Positions 1,873 through 54,096 of a DNA stretch of 64,000 nucleotides are shown piece after piece. Position 1 is the first letter of the stretch. Every line of letters starts with the position of its first letter. The position numbers and the translations under genes were made by a program. The notes beneath the pieces are model-generated. The model searched no databases, was not told where the DNA came from, and was given only the letters and a program-made list of their open reading frames with translations. Source of the stretch: Minisyncoccota bacterium (GTDB lineage: Bacteria > Patescibacteriota > Minisyncoccia > Phycocordibacterales > Phycocordibacteraceae); assembly GCA_028695415.1 (NCBI GenBank), contig JAQVIY010000001.1:46784-110783 (forward strand), read 5' to 3'.

Positions 1873-2104
1873 GCTCAAAACGTGGTACAGTTTTTAGGTG
1901 CTCCCAGTTGAATAAGAAGACCTAACCCGCCAGCTGTGGCTGTCGGTATGGTCGAAAGTCCTTGGAAGATAGAAAACCCATCATGTGGGCCTGTCTTCCA
2001 AGGCCATAGCGGGAAACCGTTATGGGAGGCGCAAGCCTCCACCCACGTGGTGGGTTTTTTGTATACCTACCACCCCATTAATTCTTCAAAATTATCTTAC
2101 ATAT

Positions 2105-5560: not shown

Positions 5561-5703
5561 TATACTACGTAGGTACACAACTTCATACCGAGAGCTTTTT
5601 TATTGCCTGATTAAAATAATCGGGCACGGAAAGGGGCTAAGGTTGTTCAGCGTCTCTCGGGATGTTGTGTACACCAACCTTAGTCCCTTTTTGTATTCCA
5701 CTT

Positions 5704-7566
5704 ATGAAGTCTGCTGAAAAAATAAATGTCATCGGGCACTGCCGAGTGAGCTCTTCAAAACAAGCGCAAGAAGGCGAAAGCCTTAGCGTGCAAGAAGGAA
5801 TCGTTCGTGCGCACGCCGAGCGGAATAATTGGAACATGGTGAAGGTGTGGCACGAGAGCTACTCGGGCCGAAAAGAAACTCGGCCAGTATTTAACGAAAT
5901 TCTTACTTACCTCGATTCTCATCCGAGGCAGATTGAATACTATGTCTTTCGTACCATTGATCGCTTCACGCGCGGTGGTACGGGGATGTATGACCAAATG
6001 AGGAAGGAGCTCTTGAAGCGTGGTGTGGCAATGGTTGATACGAGCGGAATGATTCAGAAATCAAAAAATACTCTTGAGGATTTAGATTTTGAATATTCAT
6101 GGAGCCGTCATTCTCCGAGCGAGATCACGGAAGTTGTGGTAGCGACCACTTCAAAACAAGAAGTAACCAATATTGAGACTCGTATGATTGGGCAAGAGAT
6201 CCGATTAACGCAACAGGGGTACAAGGTTCGACACGCGCAAGACGGCTTCTTGAATACCAAGATTTACGATACCGACGGCAAGAAGCGCACGGTGATGATT
6301 GAGGACCCTATCCGCGCCAAGTATCTTCAGGCAATGTTCGAACTTCGTGCAGAAGGTCAGTTGAGTGATTCAGAGATCGTGAGTCGGGTAAATGCAATGG
6401 GATACCGCAGTCGAGCGCACAAGAAATGGGACAAGAGCCACACGAGAATCCTTGGCGCGGGCGGTGGAAAACTGCTTACGGTGAAGCATTTGCAGGAAAT
6501 CATCCAGCGCCCCATTTACGCAGGTTTAATTTGCGAGAAATGGACGAAGCATAAGCCGGTGAAGGCAAAGTTTGACGGCCTAGTGTCCGTGAACATTTTC
6601 AACAAGGCAAATAGAGGAAAGGTCTTCATAGAAGAAAAAGATGATGGGTCTTATGGAATTCTGTACGACCACTATCCCGATCGTGTCGTCGTGAAGAGAA
6701 TGCGAGACAACCCGCTATTCCCGTATAAGTCGGTGGTGATGTGCCCAGAATGCGGGAAGCCGTTCATGGGAAGTCGCTCACGAAGCAAGAGCGGCAATCC
6801 CGTGCCGTATTACCATTGTTCGCGCAAACACAAGTGGATTGGGTTCAATAAGTCTGCGTTTGAGAAGACAATCGAAGATTATGCGAACCGGCTTTATTTC
6901 TTGCCGGACGAGACAACGAGCATGAAGGCCTCGCTGAAGCACCTGTATAACGAGCGTAAGTCAGAAATCGCTCGTGAGACGGTATCTATGGAGGAAAATG
7001 TCGCTGAGCTAAAGATCCAAAAGAAAGAGGCTTTAGAGGCGTTTAAGGCAGCCACAAGTGAGGTAGTGCGCCGCGAGCTCGAAAGAGATATTGAGCAGCT
7101 TGAGACTCGCATCAACGGATCCGGCGCGGAGCACGCAAGTCTCAAGATTACGGAGTCAGATATCGATGCTTTCATGGAGTACGCAAAAGGCATAATGGAA
7201 CACCCAGCAAAAGCGCTATTGAATACAGTAAATGCGCGCCATCAGGAGTCTCTTTACTCTGTGGTATTCGACGAACTGCCATCTATTACGGAGATGGCTA
7301 ATGGAACACCTAAATTGTCTTGGATTTTCAGGCTTTCTGAGGAATCTCAGACACCTAAATCTGTGTTGGCGGGCCCACTAGGAATCGAACCTAGGCTGTC
7401 GGTTTTGGAGACCGATGTACTACCATTATACGATGGACCCTTCGCACTCACGTACGATACCAGACGCTGGGATGGTTTACCACGAGCGATTTATCCCAAA
7501 CGCAGTCGAGGGGAGTCGAGTGGGGAAAGCCGTCCCAGGCAGGGCGATGCGCGGTATGATAGAGAT
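5704..7566 (+). CDS. Large serine recombinase (resolvase N-domain, recombinase domain, zinc ribbon, coiled coil). No in-frame stop: the frame reads antisense through tRNA-Trp and into the next gene
   Basis: Catalytic motif INVIGHCRVSSSKQ; zinc ribbon CPECGKPF...YYHCSRKHKW. ORF track shows a continuous frame 5662..8466. Confidence 0.8.
7367..7440 (-). tRNA. tRNA-Trp (anticodon CCA), CCA encoded
   Basis: Minus strand GGGTCCA TC GTAT AATGGTA GTAC A TCGGT CTCCAAA ACCGA CAGC CTAGG TTCGATT CCTAG TGGGCCC G CCA. Cloverleaf folds, G73. Confidence 0.85.
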
Positions 7567-8466
7567 ATGCGTTCTCGCACTTCACTCTTCGCGCTTCTGC
7601 TTGTGGCGGGTTTGTTTATAGTACCCGCTATTGCCTCTGCACAAAGCGTACCGTTTTTCGGCCCCATCATCCCCCAGGAAGCTAATCAGGGGCTGTGCCC
7701 GGCGAGTTGGGGTATGGTCATCATCGTCATCAATCGGATTATCGCGTTCATGATCACGCTCGCTATTGTCTTCGTCGCGCCTTTAATGATTGCCTATTCC
7801 GGATTCCTCTTCGTCGTGAATCCTGTAAACGCGAGCGGGAAAGAGAAGGCGAAAGAAATTTTACGGAACACCGTTATCGGCATCGTCATTGCACTCTCGG
7901 GCTGGATGATCGTCGATGCGCTTATGGCGGTGCTCTATAACCCAGGCAATGCTGGCGGGACATGGATGACTATTATCAGGGGAAATACTGCCGATGTGTG
8001 CCTCCCGCAGAAAGGAGCGTTACCTAGCGGTACATTGAATCAAACCGGCACGGTAACGAATGTAGGAGTAAGTCCCGGCGCTGCTACGGGAAGATATACG
8101 TTTGATCCGGGCATAGCCGTACAGACGAAAGACGAATCAGGCCCGCTCTCGAGCTTGCTCTCCTGTATGGCGGGGAAATTACCGGCAGGTGTTGGTAGGA
8201 TTTCCTCGATTTCTGATAGCCTTATAACAAGCGGTCAGAAGACTTTTGCGCAGTGTGCAACGGGTGGCTGTCAGCATCAGGCAAACTCGTGTCATTATGG
8301 AGGCAAGACCTGCATTGGCAGCTCGTATGCCGTTGATTTCGGTGATGATGAAAACATCACAATACTCACGGCCGCTGCAAAGGCTTGCGGTGCTCAAACC
8401 CTCAATGAAGGGACGCATCTGCACGCGAGCGTCGGTGCCGTGAGCGGTTGCGGTTGCGGTCTCTAA
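7567..8466 (+). CDS. Secreted/membrane protein: Sec signal peptide, two TM helices, Cys/His-rich C-terminal domain
   Basis: MRSRTSLFALLLVAGLFIVPAIASA signal peptide. In frame with the upstream recombinase ORF. Confidence 0.5.
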   Translation: MRSRTSLFALLLVAGLFIVPAIASAQSVPFFGPIIPQEANQGLCPASWGMVIIVINRIIAFMITLAIVFVAPLMIAYSGFLFVVNPVNASGKEKAKEILRNTVIGIVIALSGWMIVDALMAVLYNPGNAGGTWMTIIRGNTADVCLPQKGALPSGTLNQTGTVTNVGVSPGAATGRYTFDPGIAVQTKDESGPLSSLLSCMAGKLPAGVGRISSISDSLITSGQKTFAQCATGGCQHQANSCHYGGKTCIGSSYAVDFGDDENITILTAAAKACGAQTLNEGTHLHASVGAVSGCGCGL

Positions 8467-10139: not shown

Positions 10140-10386
10140 GCCCTGCTTCGCCAAGGCTACGCAGGGCTACTTCGCTGTGTGTGCACTTCGTAGCTCCATT
10201 TCTGAATGGAGCGAAGTAGTGCCGGGAGAGGCTTGGTCACGCTTTACTAATTCGCTTCGCTCATAAGTATGCGCGACCCCGCCTCGCGACGCTCGGGGAC
10301 TCGCGTATCGCTCCGGCTTTCAAGTCTCTCACGCACGGTGCGCAGGCACCGTGCTTCCCGGCACAGCTTTCGCTTCGCTCAATCTG

Positions 10387-10467
10387 TGCCGGGAGAGAGA
10401 CTTGAACTCTCATGTCTTTCGACGAGGGGTTTTGAATCCCTTGCGTATACCATTTCGCCATCCCGGC
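10387..10467 (-). tRNA. tRNA-Leu (anticodon CAA), type II with long variable arm
   Basis: Minus strand GCCGGGA TG GCG AAATGGTATA CGC A AGGGA TTCAAAA CCCCT CGTCGAAAGACAT GAGAG TTCAAGT CTCTC TCCCGGC A. Confidence 0.75.
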
Positions 10468-10500
10468 AGCGCCCTTCGAAGCTTTACGCGAAGTAGGGCA

Positions 10501-48789: not shown

Positions 48790-50046
48790 CGGAGCGAACT
48801 AGCTAATTTCAGTCTACCGGACACGCCGGGGGTGTACCTCTTCAAGCAGGGCAGAAAAGTTTTGTACGTAGGGAAGGCGACGTCGCTCCGCGACCGAGTA
48901 AGGAGCTACTTCGACGACGACCTGATTGCGACGCGCGGGCCGCGCATCGTGGATATGGTGACCAAGGCCGATAGAGTCGTGTACGAGCCGACGCCGACGG
49001 TGCTCGAGGCACTCGTGCGTGAAGCGGCGCTCATCAAGAAGTATCAGCCCAAGGCGAATGTGGAAGGGAAGGATGACAAGACATTTTTGTACGCAGTTAT
49101 CACCGATGAGGAGATCCCGCGCGTGCTTGCAGTACGTGGTAAGGATATTGATTTCAAGACGAAACACACGAACGATGGGCAAGTGCTGAAGGTGTTCTAT
49201 GGCCCGTTTCCTTCGGGCACGCAATTGCGCGAAGCGCTTCGGATTATTCGCCGCATCTTTCCGTTTTTCGATACACCAAAGCCTGTTGAGGTGAAGAATA
49301 AAAGCCAGTCGGCGAAGATAGAATTCAATCGGCAGATAGGGCAATATCCTCGTTCATTCGAGCTGAAAGAATATCGCCGCACAATACGAAACGTTGCACT
49401 TCTCCTCTCTGGACGCGGTAAAGAATTGCGCCGCACCCTCGAGCGCGACATGAAGCGCGCAGCGAAGGAAGAGCGCTTCGAAGACGCGGCCTCCGCGCGT
49501 CGTGCGCTCTTCGCGCTTGACCACTTGCAGGACGTCTCGCTCATCAAGGACGATGCTCGATATTCGAATCTCAAGACGGTCGGCAAAGATTCGAATATGC
49601 GAATCGAGGGATATGACACGGCGCATTTATCGGGGACCAGCGCGATAGGAGTGATGACAGTCGTCGAAGACGGCGCACTGGTAAAGAAAGAGTATCGGAC
49701 ATTCAGGATTCGCGGCGTACAAAAGAACGACGACATCGCGTCACTCAAAGAAATCCTTTCGCGTCGCCTTAATCACCCAGAATGGCCGTTGCCGGATGTT
49801 GTTGTGGTAGACGGCGGCAGGGTGCAGAAAAAAGCGGCAGAAAGCGTACTCGCCGAAGCCGGAGTGAAGATACCTGTTGTGGCGGTCGTAAAAGACGAGC
49901 GGCATCGCCCGCGCGAAGTTATTGGCGCTCGCGCGGCAGGTGTCGCCGAGGCGGACGCGGTGCTCGCAAATGCCGAAGCGCACCGCTTCTCGCTCGCTCG
50001 TCATCGCGCGGCTCGTTCGACCGCGCTTCGCGGTAGCCTGAAATAA
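48784..50046 (+). CDS. uvrC: Excinuclease ABC subunit C, short form (GIY-YIG, UvrB-binding region, RNaseH-like endonuclease domain; no C-terminal HhH)
   Basis: PGVYLFKQGRKVLYVGKATSLRDRVRSYF; EGYDTAHLSGTSAIGVMTVV. Confidence 0.8.
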   Translation: MQRSELANFSLPDTPGVYLFKQGRKVLYVGKATSLRDRVRSYFDDDLIATRGPRIVDMVTKADRVVYEPTPTVLEALVREAALIKKYQPKANVEGKDDKTFLYAVITDEEIPRVLAVRGKDIDFKTKHTNDGQVLKVFYGPFPSGTQLREALRIIRRIFPFFDTPKPVEVKNKSQSAKIEFNRQIGQYPRSFELKEYRRTIRNVALLLSGRGKELRRTLERDMKRAAKEERFEDAASARRALFALDHLQDVSLIKDDARYSNLKTVGKDSNMRIEGYDTAHLSGTSAIGVMTVVEDGALVKKEYRTFRIRGVQKNDDIASLKEILSRRLNHPEWPLPDVVVVDGGRVQKKAAESVLAEAGVKIPVVAVVKDERHRPREVIGARAAGVAEADAVLANAEAHRFSLARHRAARSTALRGSLK

Positions 50047-50098
50047 GCCAATTCAACTCCGTTTTCAATCTGCCGCTTCAGCGCGGTATACTATTTGC

Positions 50099-51283: not shown

Positions 51284-51321
51284 CCGCAGTGGAGACGCCC
51301 CTCCCTGCGGTTTTATTTTTT
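51284..51321 (+). terminator. Rho-independent terminator after ddl
   Basis: ccgcag..ctgcgg stem plus ttttatttttt. Confidence 0.55.
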
Positions 51322-51347
51322 GAAAGAGGTGATAGAATGAGACATAT

Positions 51348-51420
51348 GGGCCGTTAGCTCAGTTGGTAGAGCACCTCATTTGCAATGAGGGGGTCGCAGG
51401 TTCGAATCCTGTACGGTCCA
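51348..51420 (+). tRNA. tRNA-Ala (anticodon UGC), G3:U70
   Basis: GGGCCGT TA GCTC AGTTGGTA GAGC A CCTCA TTTGCAA TGAGG GGGTC GCAGG TTCGAAT CCTGT ACGGTCC A. Confidence 0.85.
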
Positions 51421-51620
51421 CAAAACAAAGGAGCCGGATGCGGAAGCATTCGGCGACTATTGTTTTGTAGGGCCGTACAGGATTCGAAGAGACGGAGCGG
51501 GCACCTGTCCAGCAGGACAGGTCGCGAGTCGCGGACACGACCAAAGTCGAGCGACGGCGAGATTTTGAGTCGCGGAAGAAAAGCGTAATCGCGGTCCTGT
51601 ACGGTCCACAAAAACAAGAA
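51421..51620 (+). repeat. tRNA-Ala trailer insert (174 nt) ending in a direct repeat of the tRNA 3' end (tcctgtacggtccacaaaa at 51595..51613), plus an internal inverted copy at 51463..51492
   Basis: Direct 19-nt repeat of 51405..51423; inverted near-copy ttgttttgtagggccgtacaggattcgaag. Confidence 0.7.
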
Positions 51621-51705
51621 GCGGAGCGCCTATGTTTTTGTAGGATGCCGAAGTGCAAGTAACTTTGGCGCCACAAAATCCGGACAACTATGGCATACTG
51701 CATAT

Positions 51706-52182
51706 ATGCCGCAGAAGAAAACCCTTATCGAGAAAATGACGACGGGAGTGGGGTCGGTGCCTTCGCTTGTCGTGCACACCCTGGTATTTATAGGGTTCTT
51801 TGTCGCCGCGTGGTCGGGAACTATCGGCTGGGACACGATGCTGCTCGCGCTCACGACTATCGTCTCGCTTGAGGCGATTTATCTCGCAATATTCATCCAG
51901 ATGTCGGTAAACAGGCACGCTGCAGAGCTTGCCGAGGTGAGTGAGGACGTCGAGGATATTCAGGAAGATGTTGACGAGATCCAAAAGGATGTCGATGAGA
52001 TTCAGAAAGACGTCGATGAGATTCAGGAAGATGTGGAAGATATCCAAGAGGATGTCGAGGAGATTAGCGATGAGGACGAGACCGATGATGAGCACGATAA
52101 AAAACAGACCGCTGCGCTTGAACAGCTCACGCAGGATATCCATCGCGTGCTCGCCGATCTTGAGCAGTTGAAGAGAAAGTAA
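51706..52182 (+). CDS. DUF1003 family membrane protein with acidic C-terminal heptad repeats
   Basis: WDTMLLALTTIVSLEAIYLAIFIQMSVNRHAA resembles the DUF1003 core; six 21-bp tandem repeats at 51943..52066. Confidence 0.6.
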   Translation: MPQKKTLIEKMTTGVGSVPSLVVHTLVFIGFFVAAWSGTIGWDTMLLALTTIVSLEAIYLAIFIQMSVNRHAAELAEVSEDVEDIQEDVDEIQKDVDEIQKDVDEIQEDVEDIQEDVEEISDEDETDDEHDKKQTAALEQLTQDIHRVLADLEQLKRK

Positions 52183-52224
52183 ATCTGGGAATCCAAGAGG
52201 ATATCTGGTATGGTTAGGTGTATC

Positions 52225-52298
52225 GCGCTCCTAGCTCAGCTGGTTAGAGCGTTCGCCTCACACGCGAAAGGTCAGGGGTTCGAGTCCCTTGGAGCGCA
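52225..52298 (+). tRNA. tRNA-Val (anticodon CAC)
   Basis: GCGCTCC TA GCTC AGCTGGTTA GAGC G TTCGC CTCACAC GCGAA AGGTC AGGGG TTCGAGT CCCTT GGAGCGC A. Confidence 0.85.
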
Positions 52299-52426
52299 CA
52301 AGAAGACTGGGAAACCGGGCTTCTTGATGCACTAGGGGACTCGAAGGCCGGAGGCTAACGAGCCGAGGCGGGGTCGCGCAGATTTCCAGCAGGAAATCAT
52401 GTGTGACCGAGTCCCTTGGAGCGCAC
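52299..52426 (+). repeat. tRNA-Val trailer insert (108 nt) ending in a perfect 19-nt direct repeat of the tRNA 3' end (cgagtcccttggagcgcac at 52408..52426 = 52281..52299)
   Basis: Contains conserved motif cgaaggccggaggctaacgagccgaggcggggtcgcgcag. Confidence 0.75.
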
Positions 52427-52443
52427 TGGGAGGTGTTCTGTGT

Positions 52444-52514
52444 CGGGCCGGAGTATGCCGGTAGTACGCACGCTTCGGGTGCGTGTAGACCGGGTTCAAT
52501 TCCCGGCGGCCCGA
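52444..52514 (+). tRNA. tRNA-Pro (anticodon CGG), C1:G72
   Basis: CGGGCCG GA GTAT GCCGGTA GTAC G CACGC TTCGGGT GCGTG TAGA CCGGG TTCAATT CCCGG CGGCCCG A. Confidence 0.75.
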
Positions 52515-53257
52515 CAAAGAACATCTCCGAATAATACAGAGAGTTTGTTTTCTGGATAAATATCGTTTGGATAAATCTCAACGAGTCTATAACCAAGCTT
52601 TTTGGCAAGCGAACGCTTTCTTTTGATATTCTTGTCGTAAACTTCTTGTACTCCAGCGAGTCCGAAAAACTCGACTAGGATATCGAAATGTATCTTGAAA
52701 TCAGCCGTCAGTCTCGTATCCCCATATGGATAATTTCGTTCGTGTAGAATACAGTTGCTCGTAAACCAATCGTCGATAATCTTTTCGGTGAACGAATCGC
52801 AATCATGTCCGTCTGTGGCTGTGAATTTTTTCGCAAACAGAACAGGATTCGTCTCAAAGCCCGCTTGTTTGATGGCGTTATTCCAGCTTCCGAAGTTTGC
52901 AGCAAAAGCATCCCACTGATTGAACTCACGCTTGAGTGGAATGCGTCCGTTTAGTACATAAAAATCTCGGATCTTCTTGAGAAGGTCTTCACTCGAGTAC
53001 TTCTTTCGATAGGGTGCAAGACGTTCTCCGACAATCTTTTTTTCTGTTGCGCTCATCCGATGGTAATTCCTTCGATTCTCAATCGCCTGTTTTTGCAGAA
53101 GAGAAATCTGAACATCTTTGGTCCACTGATGTGCGATGCTTATGCTTACGCTTAGTTGCTTTGCTATTTCGCGATGCGTCAATCCTTCAGAACGGAGGAA
53201 GCGCGCGTTCTCTTTAGTCGAGGCAGAATGGCGGACTCCGTTTCTTGCTTTCAGCAT
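52496..53257 (-). CDS. HTH-domain protein with C-terminal Vsr/DUF559-like PD-(D/E)xK endonuclease domain; homing-endonuclease-like selfish gene in an AT-rich insert between tRNA genes
   Basis: N-terminal LTHREIAKQLSVSISIAHQW (HTH). C-terminal TADFKIHFDILVEFFGLAGVQEVYDKNIKRKRSLAKKLGYRLVEI matches the DUF559 pattern D..h.IE.DG...H....D..R...L...G..V.R. Low GC. 3' end overlaps tRNA-Pro. Confidence 0.55.
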   Translation of the reverse strand: MLKARNGVRHSASTKENARFLRSEGLTHREIAKQLSVSISIAHQWTKDVQISLLQKQAIENRRNYHRMSATEKKIVGERLAPYRKKYSSEDLLKKIRDFYVLNGRIPLKREFNQWDAFAANFGSWNNAIKQAGFETNPVLFAKKFTATDGHDCDSFTEKIIDDWFTSNCILHERNYPYGDTRLTADFKIHFDILVEFFGLAGVQEVYDKNIKRKRSLAKKLGYRLVEIYPNDIYPENKLSVLFGDVLCRAAGN

Positions 53258-53283
53258 ACTTAAATTATAACGTGGTATCCTGC

Positions 53284-53357
53284 GTCATATAATCGGGCTA
53301 TCGTATAATGGTAGTACGCATGGCTGGGGGTCATGCAGCCTGGGTTCGATTCCCAGT
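53284..53357 (+). tRNA. tRNA-Pro (anticodon GGG), CCA encoded
   Basis: CGGGCTA TC GTAT AATGGTA GTAC G CATGG CTGGGGG TCATG CAGC CTGGG TTCGATT CCCAG TAGCCCG A CCA. Confidence 0.85.
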
Positions 53358-53542
53358 AGCCCGACCAAAAACGTTCGACGTTTTTTCGGGCTACAGCAAG
53401 CGTAGCTTGCGACGGGAATCGAAAGCCGGAGCGATGTTCGGCTAGCAAGCCGAACCGCGAGGCGGGGCCGAGAAAATCCGTGAGTGACGACGAACGGATT
53501 ATTCGTGGCCGAAACCGTATTCGGGGTTCCCAGTAGCCCGAC
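53358..53542 (+). repeat. tRNA-Pro trailer insert (169 nt) ending in a 16-nt direct repeat of the tRNA 3' end (ttcccagtagcccgac at 53527..53542 = 53340..53355)
   Basis: Contains conserved motif cgaaagccggagcgat...cgcgaggcggggccg. Confidence 0.75.
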
Positions 53543-53660
53543 AAATAAGCTTCGTGTTAGAATCGTCCATGCAGTAATTTGTATCGGGCCTGTACGACAG
53601 CGTACATACCCTTCGTTCGGAGCAAGAGAATATGCAGACACATTCTCTTGTCCTCACTTC

Positions 53661-53733
53661 GGGCCTGTAGCTCACTTGGTAGAGCGCGTCATTCGCATTG
53701 ACGAGGTAGGGGGTTCGATTCCCCCCAGGTCCA
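53661..53733 (+). tRNA. tRNA-Ala (anticodon CGC), G3:U70
   Basis: GGGCCTG TA GCTC ACTTGGTA GAGC G CGTCA TTCGCAT TGACG AGGTA GGGGG TTCGATT CCCCC CAGGTCC A. Confidence 0.85.
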
Positions 53734-53805
53734 CAAAATAACTAGAGTACTCACGACTATATTTTGTGAGAGTCCTGAAGGTATTCCTGAAGGGGTCCAT
53801 AAAAA

Positions 53806-53838
53806 CAGCACCCGCCGGAAGGCGGGTGCTGTTTTTTG
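53806..53838 (+). terminator. Rho-independent terminator closing the tRNA cluster
   Basis: cagcacccgcc ggaa ggcgggtgctg followed by tttttt. Confidence 0.65.
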
Positions 53839-53847
53839 CACGATTAG

Positions 53848-54096
53848 TTAGGAGACGTGCGGGCCGATGAGCTTTGCCATCTCGAACATCGTCACTTCGC
53901 CTTTGCCGAAGATAGCCTTCAGCTTGTCATCTGCGAGGATGTTGCGCTTGTTCGCCGGGTTTTGAAGATCGTGCTTCTTGATATAGACCCAGAGCTGCTT
54001 CACCACTTCGGTGCGAGGCATAGGGCCCTTGCCCACGACCGCTTCAAGGTCTGCGGAGAGGGTAAGAGGTTTCGATAATGCTGCATTTATTGCCAT
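53848..54096 (-). CDS. SWIB/MDM2 domain protein
   Basis: 82 aa; motif VVKQLWVYIKKHDLQNPANKRNILADDKLKAIFG typical of bacterial SWIB. Confidence 0.7.
   Translation of the reverse strand: MAINAALSKPLTLSADLEAVVGKGPMPRTEVVKQLWVYIKKHDLQNPANKRNILADDKLKAIFGKGEVTMFEMAKLIGPHVS

What the first reader, a model, noticed from the sequence alone, without database searches (positions are those of the whole stretch)
10215..10467. tRNA-Leu(CAA) shows the same architecture: antisense tRNA, 153-nt insert with the conserved motif, then a 3'-end repeat
Downstream of the minus-strand tRNA-Leu 3' end (10387) lies a hairpin (gcacggtgc ctgc gcaccgtgc), then the motif (plus strand 10269..10322: tgcgcgaccccgcctcgcgacgctcggggactcgcgtatcgctccggctttc), then a copy of the tRNA end (tgccgggagag at 10220..10230). 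A second hairpin (ctacttcgc...gcgaagtag) follows. This matches the Val/Pro/Ala loci 40 kb away, arguing for a common mechanism rather than chance.
Basis: seen in the sequence. Interest (0 to 1): 0.6.

Follow-up and report, generated by a model that had tools for sequence, protein, structure and literature searches.

The report
Structured mini-insertion at tRNA 3′ ends
The 167 bases behind the tRNA-Leu gene are one copy of a widespread family of small, protein-less, folded insertion elements, matching no Rfam family, that land in tRNA genes of ultra-small (CPR) bacteria and leave the tRNA intact by duplicating its 3′ part.

Summary
tRNA-Leu(CAA) (10386-10467, minus) is followed by a 167-nt insertion (10219-10385). 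A close relative with an identical tRNA (L258) lacks exactly this stretch. The insertion has five parts:
- a capped linker hairpin;
- an antisense copy (X′) of the tRNA's T-loop-to-3′-end, split by a hairpin;
- a conserved two-hairpin core (GCCGGAG…CGAGGCGGGGUCGCG…YGUGAC);
- a direct copy of the tRNA 3′ part.

The same build follows tRNA-Val and tRNA-Pro(GGG), and in decayed form tRNA-Ala(TGC). Relative L248 has empty Val and Pro sites.

Pattern and covariance-model searches found more than 100 copies in Patescibacteria and two Elusimicrobia contigs. None were found in viral contigs and none match an Rfam family. The core helices covary strongly and contain an invariant strand-specific G·U.

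About two-thirds of copies sit 25-200 nt behind a same-strand tRNA of any isotype. Others sit in 5S rRNA or at a protein gene's 3′ end. Tandem and nested copies occur. No partner protein lies nearby.

Best reading: a non-autonomous, site-specific insertion element whose arms form a folded copy of its target. The enzyme and the retargeting mechanism are unknown.

The parts
10386..10467 (-). tRNA-Leu(CAA), intact. Its last 18 nt (10386-10403, AAGUCUCUCUCCCGGCAC, from the T loop to the 3′ end) are repeat copy 1 (X/DR1).
   Evidence: ARAGORN; Rfam; identical tRNA in relatives L258 and L256.
10219..10385 (-). The whole 167-nt insertion: linker hairpin, X′, core, DR2.
   Evidence: Absent from the otherwise collinear locus of L258. 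There the tRNA end ...CCCGGCAC is followed directly by TACTTCGCTC..., the sequence that follows DR2 in the window.
10366..10385 (-). Linker hairpin AGAUU-GAGCGAAGCGA-AAGCU (GCGAAGC mini-hairpin cap). Element-borne, not present in the empty site.
   Evidence: The same GAGCGAAGCGA cap occurs in hp2 of this element and in the linker of L190.
10356..10365 (-). X′a: UGUGCCGGGA, reverse complement of the acceptor 3′ strand plus discriminator and the next two bases.
   Evidence: Sequence; pairs in the predicted folds.
10333..10354 (-). P5 hairpin GCACGGUGC-CUGC-GCACCGUGC, inserted in X′ exactly at the acceptor/T-stem boundary. An optional module of the family (GCRAG...CUYGC followed by GUG).
   Evidence: The same position and closing pairs are seen in many members (L162, L165, L133, L132, L128, L186, L195, L202, L216; L094, L112).
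10319..10330 (-). X′b: GAGAGACUUGAA, reverse complement of T-loop bases 54-60 plus the T-stem 3′ strand.
   Evidence: The reversed T loop (ACUUGAA versus UUCAAGU) shows it is antisense, not a direct tRNA duplicate.
10235..10317 (-). Conserved core, long subtype. P1 = GCC-G-GA-[hp1]-GA-GGC with tandem G·A; then GG; P2 = GGUCGCG-[hp2 with GAGCGAAGCGA cap]-CGUGACC.
   Evidence: Pattern match 10277-10317; CM R1 31.4 bits, E = 3.5e-6; aligned with 23 other long-type cores; fold z = -5.3.
10219..10234 (-). DR2: AAGCCUCUCCCGGCAC, the second (decaying) copy of the tRNA 3′ part. It starts at the T-loop position right after the core.
52300..52426 (+). Sister element behind tRNA-Val(CAC). Short-type core at 52347-52408; 19-nt perfect DR (52281-52299 and 52408-52426).
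   Evidence: CM 86.4 bits. Empty site in L248: Val and Pro(CGG) are 16 nt apart with the same downstream flank GGGAGGTGTTCTGTGT.
53366..53542 (+). Sister element behind tRNA-Pro(GGG). Long-type core at 53425-53510; DR ttcccagtagcccgac at 53350-53365 and 53527-53542.
   Evidence: CM 33.2 bits. In L248, Pro(GGG) abuts Ala(CGC) with no spacer.
51422..51618 (+). Decayed sister element behind tRNA-Ala(TGC). X′ at 51460-51488; degenerate core about 51489-51595; DR2 from 51596.
   Evidence: CM only 11 bits, E = 0.5, so this call rests on architecture, not on the model.

Best explanation
**What it is.** The Leu locus carries one copy of a family of small (about 110-190 nt), non-coding, non-autonomous insertion elements. 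They are common in Patescibacteria (CPR), and two copies were found on Elusimicrobia contigs.

Each element has a conserved 67-95-nt two-hairpin core. The core folds on the strand that has the same sense as the neighbouring tRNA.
- Upstream of the core lies a reverse-complement copy (X′) of the target.
- Downstream of the core lies a direct copy (DR2) of the same target stretch.
- For most members the target stretch is the tRNA gene from T-loop position 56/57 to the 3′ end or beyond. As a result an intact tRNA gene remains upstream.

**Shown here:**
- insertion/deletion polymorphism at the Leu, Val and Pro(GGG) sites between close relatives, with exact boundaries;
- family-wide covariation in the core;
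- a fixed left boundary in the T loop;
- repeat lengths varying from about 12 to more than 56 nt;
- tandem, serial and nested copies;
- non-tRNA targets;
- no partner gene nearby.

**Inferred mechanism (about 0.3 on its own).** The element moves as a folded single strand, either top-strand DNA or RNA. X′ and X pair into a duplex copy of the target site, capped by the core. A recombinase encoded elsewhere exchanges strands between this folded site and the tRNA gene. The target sequence is regenerated on both sides, which allows serial insertion. This resembles the folded attP of phage CTX or integron attC sites.

**Also inferred.** The element is co-transcribed with the tRNA, because it has no promoter or terminator of its own.
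For: - **Empty versus filled sites.** L258 has an identical tRNA-Leu and identical flanks but lacks 10219-10385. L253, L254 and L255 have a 149-nt spacer. L248 lacks the Val and Pro(GGG) elements. L248 has a decayed copy near uvrC that the window lacks.
- **Family size and spread.** 3/0 pattern matches against shuffles in the window. About 37 CPR/Elusimicrobia loci among 120 genome hits. About 60 more from metagenomes. 99 CM hits in 100 loci, with at least 12 loci holding two copies.
- **Core structure.** 97.3% of cells paired, against 81% after shuffling and about 40% with partners slid; 12 pairs show double changes; G38·U66 is invariant in 37/37. Compensatory changes are visible in the long type.
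- **Context.** 48 of 77 cores have a same-strand tRNA ending within 200 nt upstream, of all isotypes. Every tRNA lying within 200 nt (48 upstream, 15 downstream) is on the same strand; the only opposite-strand tRNAs listed are further out (79-231 nt).
- **Boundaries.** DR2 starts at -19 from the tRNA end (mode) and X′ coverage starts at -21 (mode).
- **Arms match the target.** The tRNA, DR2 and the reverse complement of X′ are identical in 634 of 782 aligned columns. Wobble-preserving transitions on this strand outnumber the opposite type 21 to 7.
- **Serial and nested copies.** L251/L252 carry two in series with the native terminator regenerated. Others: L081, L097, L053, L007, L035; L213, L211.
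- **Non-tRNA targets.** L037 is in a protein gene's 3′ end with a 33-nt DR. L003, L077, L147 and L243 are in 5S rRNA.
- **No recurrent neighbouring protein**.
- **No promoter-like or terminator-like site inside the Leu element**.
Against: - No recombinase or other partner was identified.
- The folded-att mechanism rests on architecture alone.
- It is unexplained how X′ and DR2 become matched to each new target, while element-borne hairpins (linker, P5) are interleaved with them.
- X′ and DR2 drift at similar rates (73 versus 65 changed columns), with almost no coordinated X′/DR2 changes (4 columns). The arms are therefore not clearly maintained after insertion.
- Repeat length is not fixed, unlike classical att cores or target-site duplications.
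- Members that sit upstream of a tRNA or 5S gene, inside a partial 5′ copy, do not fit the simple scheme.
- The direction of events (gain versus precise loss) is not polarised by an outgroup.
- RNA and single-stranded DNA cannot be told apart from sequence.
Confidence: 0.6

Rival explanations
1. A cis-acting RNA module of the tRNA transcript. X′ can pair either with the tRNA's own 3′ half or with the decoy copy DR2, and the core (perhaps bound by a ligand or protein) sets the balance. This would control tRNA folding, processing or stability. On this view the element is maintained for the host and spreads only by ordinary duplication.
For: - Sense-strand structure with an invariant G·U.
- Same orientation as the tRNA and immediate adjacency.
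- No promoter or terminator of its own at Leu.
- The minimum-energy fold of tRNA plus element pairs the tRNA 3′ half with X′ and the tRNA 5′ end with DR2.
- Linker hairpins are capped by GNRA/UUCG-type loops.
Against: - Presence/absence differs between close relatives with identical tRNAs.
- Only 3-4 of the 8 tRNAs in the window carry it.
- Decayed, nested and tandem copies exist.
- Copies occur in a protein gene, in 5S rRNA, and solitary without any tRNA.
- DR2 of the Leu element has lost 2 nt. X′ and DR2 drift without compensation.
- Note that a mobile element could still have such an RNA-level effect; the two views are not exclusive.
Confidence: 0.15
2. An RNA-guided element. The transcript acts as a guide or bridge-type RNA: the core is the scaffold and X′ (with X) specifies both target and donor for an RNA-guided recombinase or nuclease encoded elsewhere in the genome. 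The copies would be transposase-less derivatives mobilised in trans.
For: - A scaffold-plus-variable-arm layout. The variable 3′ arm starts immediately after the invariant YGUGAC.
- Arms are complementary or identical to the flanking target in every class, including non-tRNA targets.
- Size of 110-190 nt.
- Wobble bias on the transcribed strand.
Against: - No candidate effector lies next to any of 77 copies.
- No autonomous copy was found.
- No Rfam guide-RNA family matches.
- Known RNA-guided transposons (IS110, TnpB/IscB, CAST) do not leave 12-56-nt direct repeats. This last point is from my own knowledge.
Confidence: 0.15
3. Scars of conventional integrase-borne islands or prophages. A large element integrated into the tRNA gene's T loop bringing a replacement 3′ end, and later lost almost all its DNA. 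What remains is attL, a conserved end-proximal sequence (the core) and attR.
For: - Direct repeats that begin in the T loop and run to the tRNA end are the classical signature of tyrosine-integrase integration into tRNA genes (own knowledge, Williams 2002).
- A large serine recombinase gene lies 2 kb away.
- L189 has a 4.7-kb KAP-NTPase segment between two core-X units.
Against: - More than 100 copies have the same compact layout, with the core abutting X′ and DR2 and no variable remnant.
- Clean 167-nt and 127-nt indels.
- No integrase near the copies.
- No genuine hit in 2.9 million viral contigs.
- X′ is not explained by this view.
Confidence: 0.07
4. A degenerate tandem duplicate of the tRNA gene (a tRNA-like pseudogene with a large T-loop insertion), or a chance similarity.
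For: X′a equals the acceptor 5′ strand and X′b resembles the T-stem 5′ strand. In tRNA-Ala(TGC), X′a keeps the G of the G3·U70 pair.
Against: - X′b contains the reverse complement of the non-palindromic T loops (ACUUGAA for Leu, ACUCGAA for Val). X′ also continues into the complement of the 3′ trailer.
- The pattern occurs 0 times in shuffles.
- The family is found across phyla.
Confidence: 0.02

Closest known systems
Integrative elements that target tRNA genes (tyrosine-integrase islands and prophages)
   Same: They insert in the 3′ part of a tRNA gene, often at the T loop. They leave the gene intact by duplicating its 3′ part as direct repeats. Serial insertion at the regenerated site occurs.
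   Different: Here the element is 110-190 nt with no integrase or any gene. It carries an additional antisense copy of the target and a conserved structured core. Repeat length varies from about 12 to more than 56 nt. No autonomous relative was found.
Folded single-stranded recombination sites: CTX phage attP(+) used by XerCD, and integron attC sites
   Same: The order 'site ... inverted site - spacer - site' after integration. Structure rather than sequence is conserved, with strand-specific wobble or mismatch. The recombinase is supplied in trans. Arrays arise by repeated insertion.
   Different: The target is a tRNA gene (or another stable-RNA gene), not dif or attI. The stem sequence differs for every target. 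No Xer-type or IntI-type partner or box sequences were shown. Only an architectural analogy was tested.
REPIN/RAYT and IS200/IS605-derived palindromic elements (PATEs)
   Same: Short, non-coding, hairpin-forming and multi-copy. Presumed to be mobilised in trans by a single-copy enzyme. Cleavage sites are read by base pairing next to a hairpin.
   Different: Those elements make no long direct repeats and have near-identical copies. Here each copy carries arms specific to its own target, and no HUH transposase was looked for or found.
RtT repeats downstream of E. coli tyrT (Rfam RF00391)
   Same: Repeats downstream of a tRNA gene that each contain the tRNA's 3′-terminal nucleotides and are released from the tRNA transcript (own knowledge).
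   Different: No sequence or structure match. RtT has no antisense arm, no conserved three-way core, and is confined to one enterobacterial locus.
IS110-family bridge RNAs and TnpB ωRNAs
   Same: A structured scaffold whose variable segments match the sequences flanking the element. The 3′ variable arm abuts an invariant scaffold end.
   Different: Those RNAs are encoded next to their recombinase or nuclease, use guides of about 4-16 nt, and leave no long repeats. No such protein is near any copy.

Membership tests
Any curated RNA family (Rfam 15) | Covariance-model match to the core at or near the gathering score. | tested here: not met
   A gathering-threshold scan of the whole window finds only tRNAs and LOOT. 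E ≤ 10 scans of 10140-10480 and 51300-53850 give no hit on any core.
tRNA (RF00005) - the host gene | Cloverleaf and anticodon. | tested here: met
   tRNA-Leu(CAA) 10386-10467, 52.8 bits.
Integrase-type integrative element at a tRNA gene | Direct repeats (attL/attR) made of the tRNA 3′ part, starting in a loop. | tested here: met
   DR2 starts at T-loop position -19 in 19 members, and within -17 to -21 in most others. Leu, Val and Pro boundaries were checked against empty sites.
Integrase-type integrative element at a tRNA gene | Integrase gene carried inside the element. | tested here: not met
   Elements are 110-190 nt. No recurrent protein lies within ±4 kb of 77 copies.
MITE (DDE-transposon derivative) | Family-wide conserved terminal inverted repeats and a fixed-length target-site duplication. 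| tested here: not met
   The inverted arms X′/X differ at every locus because they copy the target. Repeat length ranges from about 5 to 49+ nt and reaches 56-100 nt in L088 and L081.
Group I / group II introns | Catalytic core recognised by Rfam models; exons not duplicated. | tested here: not met
   No Rfam intron hit. The core is only 67-95 nt. The flanking 'exon' is duplicated. Group II introns are reported absent from Patescibacteria (PMC13011429).
Folded single-strand att site (CTX attP / attC type) | Inverted copies of the recombination site that pair in one strand, with structure conserved on one strand only. | tested here: met
   X′ and X flank the core and pair. Invariant G·U and wobble bias on this strand.
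Folded single-strand att site (CTX attP / attC type) | A single-stranded DNA intermediate, and a tyrosine recombinase acting on the folded site. | not testable with these tools
   Needs detection of single-stranded or circular forms and biochemical tests.
IS110 bridge RNA / TnpB ωRNA type guide RNA | Encoded within or next to its recombinase or nuclease gene. | tested here: not met
   No such neighbour. The only recombinase in the window is a serine recombinase 2 kb away, and it is absent from relatives' syntenic loci.
Diversity-generating retroelement (VR/TR repeats) | Repeat differences confined to adenines of the template; a nearby reverse transcriptase. | tested here: not met
   The Leu DR1/DR2 differences are a T-to-C change and a 2-nt deletion. 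No RT lies among neighbours.
RtT (RF00391) | Match to the Rfam model. | tested here: not met
   No hit.

The most novel reading that the evidence does not exclude
The family is a protein-less mobile element whose target specificity is written in nucleic acid. A folded single strand (RNA or DNA) has a stem that is a literal copy of the target duplex, held by a conserved three-way core. Its arms are re-templated from each new target, in both orientations, at the moment of insertion. That would be a new class of nucleic-acid-programmed site-specific recombination substrate, native to CPR bacteria and naturally reprogrammable.
Probability: 0.2. Interest if true: 0.9.

Novelty: new variant of a known kind. 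Interest (0 to 1): 0.75.

Why it matters
- **Cost to small genomes.** CPR genomes are about 1 Mb and heavily streamlined, yet this window alone holds 3-4 copies in 64 kb, and many 8-kb loci hold two. The element is either a very successful parasite or it does something useful.
- **A new RNA family.** Its core covaries and has no Rfam entry.
- **Genome structure at tRNA loci.** It bears on the partial tRNA-end duplications seen at some tRNA loci, and tRNA-gene inversions were also seen between these relatives; a causal link was not tested.
- **Strain markers.** It gives strain-level presence/absence markers.
- **Possible tool.** If the arms really specify the target, it would be a compact, programmable integration system that needs only a trans-acting enzyme.
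- **Annotation.** The repeated tRNA 3′ ends and antisense pieces could be mis-called as tRNA fragments or CRISPR-like repeats.

Tried and rejected
- **Rfam.** Searched at gathering and at E ≤ 10. There is no family for the core. Hammerhead, twister, pistol, hatchet, HDV, introns, RtT and tmRNA all gave no credible hit.
- **Viral contigs.** All six pattern matches are chance hits inside GC-rich coding DNA.
- **Neighbour proteins.** All-against-all clustering of 443 ORFs around 77 copies gave only housekeeping families, in at most 6 loci each.
- **Serine recombinase at 5662-8466.** It is not recurrent near other copies and is absent from the syntenic position in relatives. It is kept only as a lead, because X′ and DR2 differ by the 2 nt expected from a 2-nt staggered cut.
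- **tRNA tandem-duplicate origin.** Rejected because of the reversed T-loop sequence.
- **X′:DR2 as a maintained helix.** There is no compensatory signal.
- **Isotype-specific or genome-specific core lineages.** Cores at the same isoacceptor differ, and the same subtype occurs at different tRNAs.
- **Literature.** Five full-text searches found nothing describing this element. The closest paper covers group I introns in CPR tRNA anticodon loops (PMC13011429).
- **Same-organism contig.** An exact-protein look-up for the peroxiredoxin returned only the same organism (L247), which was uninformative.
- **L189.** A KAP-NTPase segment lies between two core-X units. This was noted but not resolved.

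Full report
**1. The observation**

The window comes from a Paceibacteria-type CPR genome. Its Ddl and ParB proteins are 100% identical to proteins named "Candidatus Pacebacteria bacterium" on a 209-kb contig.

ARAGORN and Rfam place tRNA-Leu(CAA) at 10386-10467 on the minus strand. Reading the minus strand downstream of the tRNA gives, in order:
- a 20-nt linker that folds into a small hairpin capped by GAGCGAAGCGA (10385-10366);
- UGUGCCGGGA (10365-10356), the reverse complement of the acceptor 3′ strand, the discriminator and the next two bases;
- GU;
- GAGAGACUUGAA (10330-10319), the reverse complement of T-loop bases 54-60 and the T-stem 3′ strand;
- one A;
- the conserved core (10317-10235);
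- AAGCCUCUCCCGGCAC (10234-10219), a copy of the tRNA from the T loop to its last base, with one substitution and a 2-nt deletion.

The two conserved blocks of the core, GCCGGAG and GAGGCGGGG with a variable gap, occur three times in the window and never in 100 shuffles.

**2. The same thing at the other tRNAs**

tRNA-Val(CAC), tRNA-Pro(GGG) and, in degenerate form, tRNA-Ala(TGC) are followed by the same ordered parts. A covariance model built only from short-type cores scores the copies as follows:

| Copy | Bits |
|---|---|
| Val | 86.4 |
| Pro(GGG) | 33.2 |
| Leu | 31.4 |
| Ala(TGC) | 11 (not significant) |

Nothing else in the 64 kb scores credibly. tRNA-Trp, Gln, Pro(CGG) and Ala(CGC) have no copy.

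**3. It is an insertion: empty sites in close relatives**

The gene order miaA - peroxiredoxin - tRNA-Leu - ParB - RelA/SpoT is conserved in relatives whose ParB is 88-91% identical. The peroxiredoxin-ParB spacer differs:

| Locus | Spacer |
|---|---|
| window | 400 nt |
| L258 | 238 nt |
| L253, L254, L255 | 149 nt |

L258 has a tRNA-Leu identical to the window's. Immediately after ...CCCGGCAC it continues with TACTTCGCTCGATTAAGAAATCGAGC.... That is the sequence which follows the second repeat copy in the window. The window therefore differs by exactly 167 nt (10219-10385).

The "second hairpin" ctacttcgc...gcgaagtag is present in L258, so it is native flank.

L248 (Ddl 88% identical) tells the same story for the tRNA cluster. 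It has Val, Pro(CGG), Pro(GGG) and Ala(CGC) separated by 16, 19 and 0 nt. The flank GGGAGGTGTTCTGTGT follows tRNA-Val directly there, but follows the second repeat copy in the window.

Conversely, L248 has a decayed copy at the uvrC/ddl junction that the window lacks. L251/L252 carry two copies in series behind tRNA-Ala(TGC).

**4. The family**

About 37 are from Patescibacteria (Saccharibacteria, Paceibacteria/Parcubacteria lineages, Minisyncoccia) and two are from Elusimicrobia contigs. The rest are chance matches in GC-rich genomes.
More than half of them pass the filters for genuine copies (77 pooled with the genome loci).
- The viral collection gave only chance matches.
- The covariance model finds 99 copies in 100 of these loci, and at least 12 loci have two copies within 8 kb or less.
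- No Rfam family matches, and five literature searches found no description.

**5. The core is a conserved fold on one strand**

In 37 short-type cores the proposed structure is:
- P1: GCC / bulged G / tandem G·A / a 4-bp hairpin, usually with a GACG loop / GGC;
- a GG linker;
- P2: GGUCGCG...YGUGACC, enclosing a 7-bp hairpin with an AGCA-type loop.

This structure pairs in 97.3% of cells. The controls give 81% after shuffling and 37-47% when partners are slid. Twelve pairs show changes on both sides, in 130 cells.

One G·U is invariant (37/37) and a second is G·U in 24 of 37. Both would be A·C mismatches on the other strand, so the fold belongs to the strand with the sense of the tRNA. It could be RNA or single-stranded DNA.

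The long subtype, to which the Leu and Pro(GGG) copies belong, has a longer hp1 capped by AGCA and an hp2 capped by GAGCGACGGCGA-like sequences. Compensatory changes are obvious.

**6. Context and boundaries**

- Of 77 pooled cores, 48 have a same-strand tRNA ending within 200 nt upstream, of every isotype. Five have only a same-strand tRNA just downstream. Every tRNA within 200 nt of a core is on the same strand; a few opposite-strand tRNAs lie further out (79-231 nt).
- The second repeat copy starts at position -19 from the tRNA end in 19 cases and within -17 to -21 in most others. This is C56/G57 of the T loop.
- The antisense arm most often begins its complement at -21 (T54). In a second group it covers only the last 3-7 nt of the tRNA plus the trailer.
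- Repeat length runs from a few nt to at least 49 nt (the limit of the script's measuring window), and reaches 56 nt (L088) or about 100 nt (L081).
- The hairpin that splits the antisense arm sits at the acceptor/T-stem boundary in many members and has conserved closing pairs.

**7. The arms are antisense and copy the target**

The arms are not a tRNA duplicate, because X′b carries the reversed T loop (ACUUGAA for Leu, ACUCGAA for Val).

Across 39 members, the tRNA 3′ part, DR2 and the reverse complement of X′ are identical in 634 of 782 aligned columns. The remaining columns break down as follows:

| Which sequence differs | Columns |
|---|---|
| DR2 alone | 65 |
| X′ alone | 73 |
| tRNA alone | 4 |

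All three were therefore the same at insertion. Afterwards the two non-tRNA copies drift, with no coordinated changes between them.

Among X′ changes, transitions that keep a G·U pair on this strand outnumber the mirror-image type 21 to 7.

Cores of one subtype occur at different tRNAs, and one isoacceptor carries different subtypes. The Val element of the window and that of the syntenic L031 differ in core and in insertion class. Retargeting must therefore be frequent.

**8. Signs of repeated site-specific insertion**

- L251/L252 read: tRNA - hairpin1 - core1 - hairpin2 - core2 - hairpin3. Hairpins 1 and 3 share the native terminator.
- L097 and L081 are head-to-tail partial dimers. L053, L007 and L035 repeat the 3′ domain plus arm.
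- L213 has at least three copies, in various states of decay.
- In L211 one element sits inside the 5′ hairpin of another.

Targets are not only tRNAs:
- L037 sits in the 3′ end of a protein gene, with a 33-nt repeat and a 10-nt antisense arm.
- L147, L003, L077 and L243 involve 5S rRNA.
- L014, L109 and L106 sit upstream of a tRNA, inside a partial copy of its 5′ part.

All insertion points fall in regions that are single-stranded in the folded RNA: the T loop, the D loop, position 26, the 3′ end and 5S loops.

**9. What it most likely is**

The shown facts fit a non-autonomous insertion element that recombines at a stretch of target sequence and regenerates that stretch on both sides.

The order "site - short body - inverted site - spacer - site" is the order left by integration of a folded single-stranded att site, as in CTX phage and integron attC (own knowledge). 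In such sites only structure and strand are conserved, and the enzyme is supplied in trans. I take this as the best mechanistic model. It is inference, at about 0.3.

No partner protein lies near the copies. The serine recombinase 2 kb upstream is absent from relatives' loci. The 2-nt offset between the ends of X′ and DR2 is what a 2-nt staggered cut at T54-T55 would leave, but that is only a lead.

Reverse transcription is less attractive, because group II introns are reported absent from the phylum (PMC13011429). Other reverse transcriptases were not excluded.

The Leu element has no promoter-like or terminator-like site, so it is probably co-transcribed with the tRNA. The lowest-energy fold of the joint transcript pairs the tRNA's 3′ half with X′. 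An RNA-level effect on the tRNA is therefore possible and not exclusive of mobility.

**10. Verdict**

The finding is real, is more than chance, and is part of a large family matching no Rfam family and found in none of five literature searches. The enzyme, the nature of the moving intermediate (RNA or DNA), and the way the arms are matched to new targets all remain open.

Noticed in passing
window 1919-2040 (+): A full-length match to the Rfam LOOT RNA (RF03000): 87.9 bits against a gathering score of 46.4.
   Followed up: no
window 5662-8466 (+) and 7367-7440 (-): A 934-aa large serine recombinase ORF, with Resolvase, Recombinase and zinc-ribbon domains in its first 400 aa. Its domain-less C-terminal half runs antisense through a well-scoring tRNA-Trp gene. 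Syntenic relatives (L253, L255, L258) have neither the recombinase nor the tRNA upstream of miaA.
   Followed up: partly
window 52496-53257 (-): An ORF with a homing-endonuclease-associated HNH_repeat domain lies between tRNA-Pro(CGG) and tRNA-Pro(GGG). In relative L248 these two tRNAs are 19 nt apart. LAGLIDADG-like ORFs lie about 0.8 kb downstream of cores in three other loci (for example L160).
   Followed up: partly
window 51348-51421 versus L248 5194-5267; L251/L252 7609-8017: tRNA-Ala(TGC) lies on opposite strands in the window and in the close relative L248, within the same Ddl-DUF1003 interval. The Val/Pro cluster is inverted in L251/L252. tRNA genes in this group are therefore rearrangement points.
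   Followed up: partly
window 53584-53594 and 53659-53669; L248 about 5800-5880: Partial copies of tRNA 5′ ends occur without any core. An 11-nt copy of the start of tRNA-Ala(CGC) lies about 66 nt upstream of the gene. In L248 a 17-nt copy of the start of tRNA-Val is followed by a 60-nt insert carrying a promoter-like sequence.
   Followed up: no
window 53735-53838: Behind tRNA-Ala(CGC) there is a palindrome that includes the tRNA end and a tandem tcctgaagg, with no core. A strong GC hairpin plus T-run terminator follows.
   Followed up: no
L248 3896-3952 versus window 49990-50098: A decayed copy of the core (35.9 bits), closed by an AAGUGAG/CUCACUU stem, sits at the uvrC stop codon in L248. 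It is absent from the window.
   Followed up: partly
L189 (5019-nt metagenome contig): Two core-plus-arm units with the identical arm CGATTCCCTGTAGGGT flank a 4.7-kb segment that encodes a 1009-aa KAP-family P-loop NTPase and a 215-aa ORF. This may be an island inserted at the same kind of site.
   Followed up: partly
window 51930-52040 versus L248: A 42-nt in-frame length difference lies in the acidic DVDEIQ repeat of the DUF1003 gene between the two relatives.
   Followed up: no
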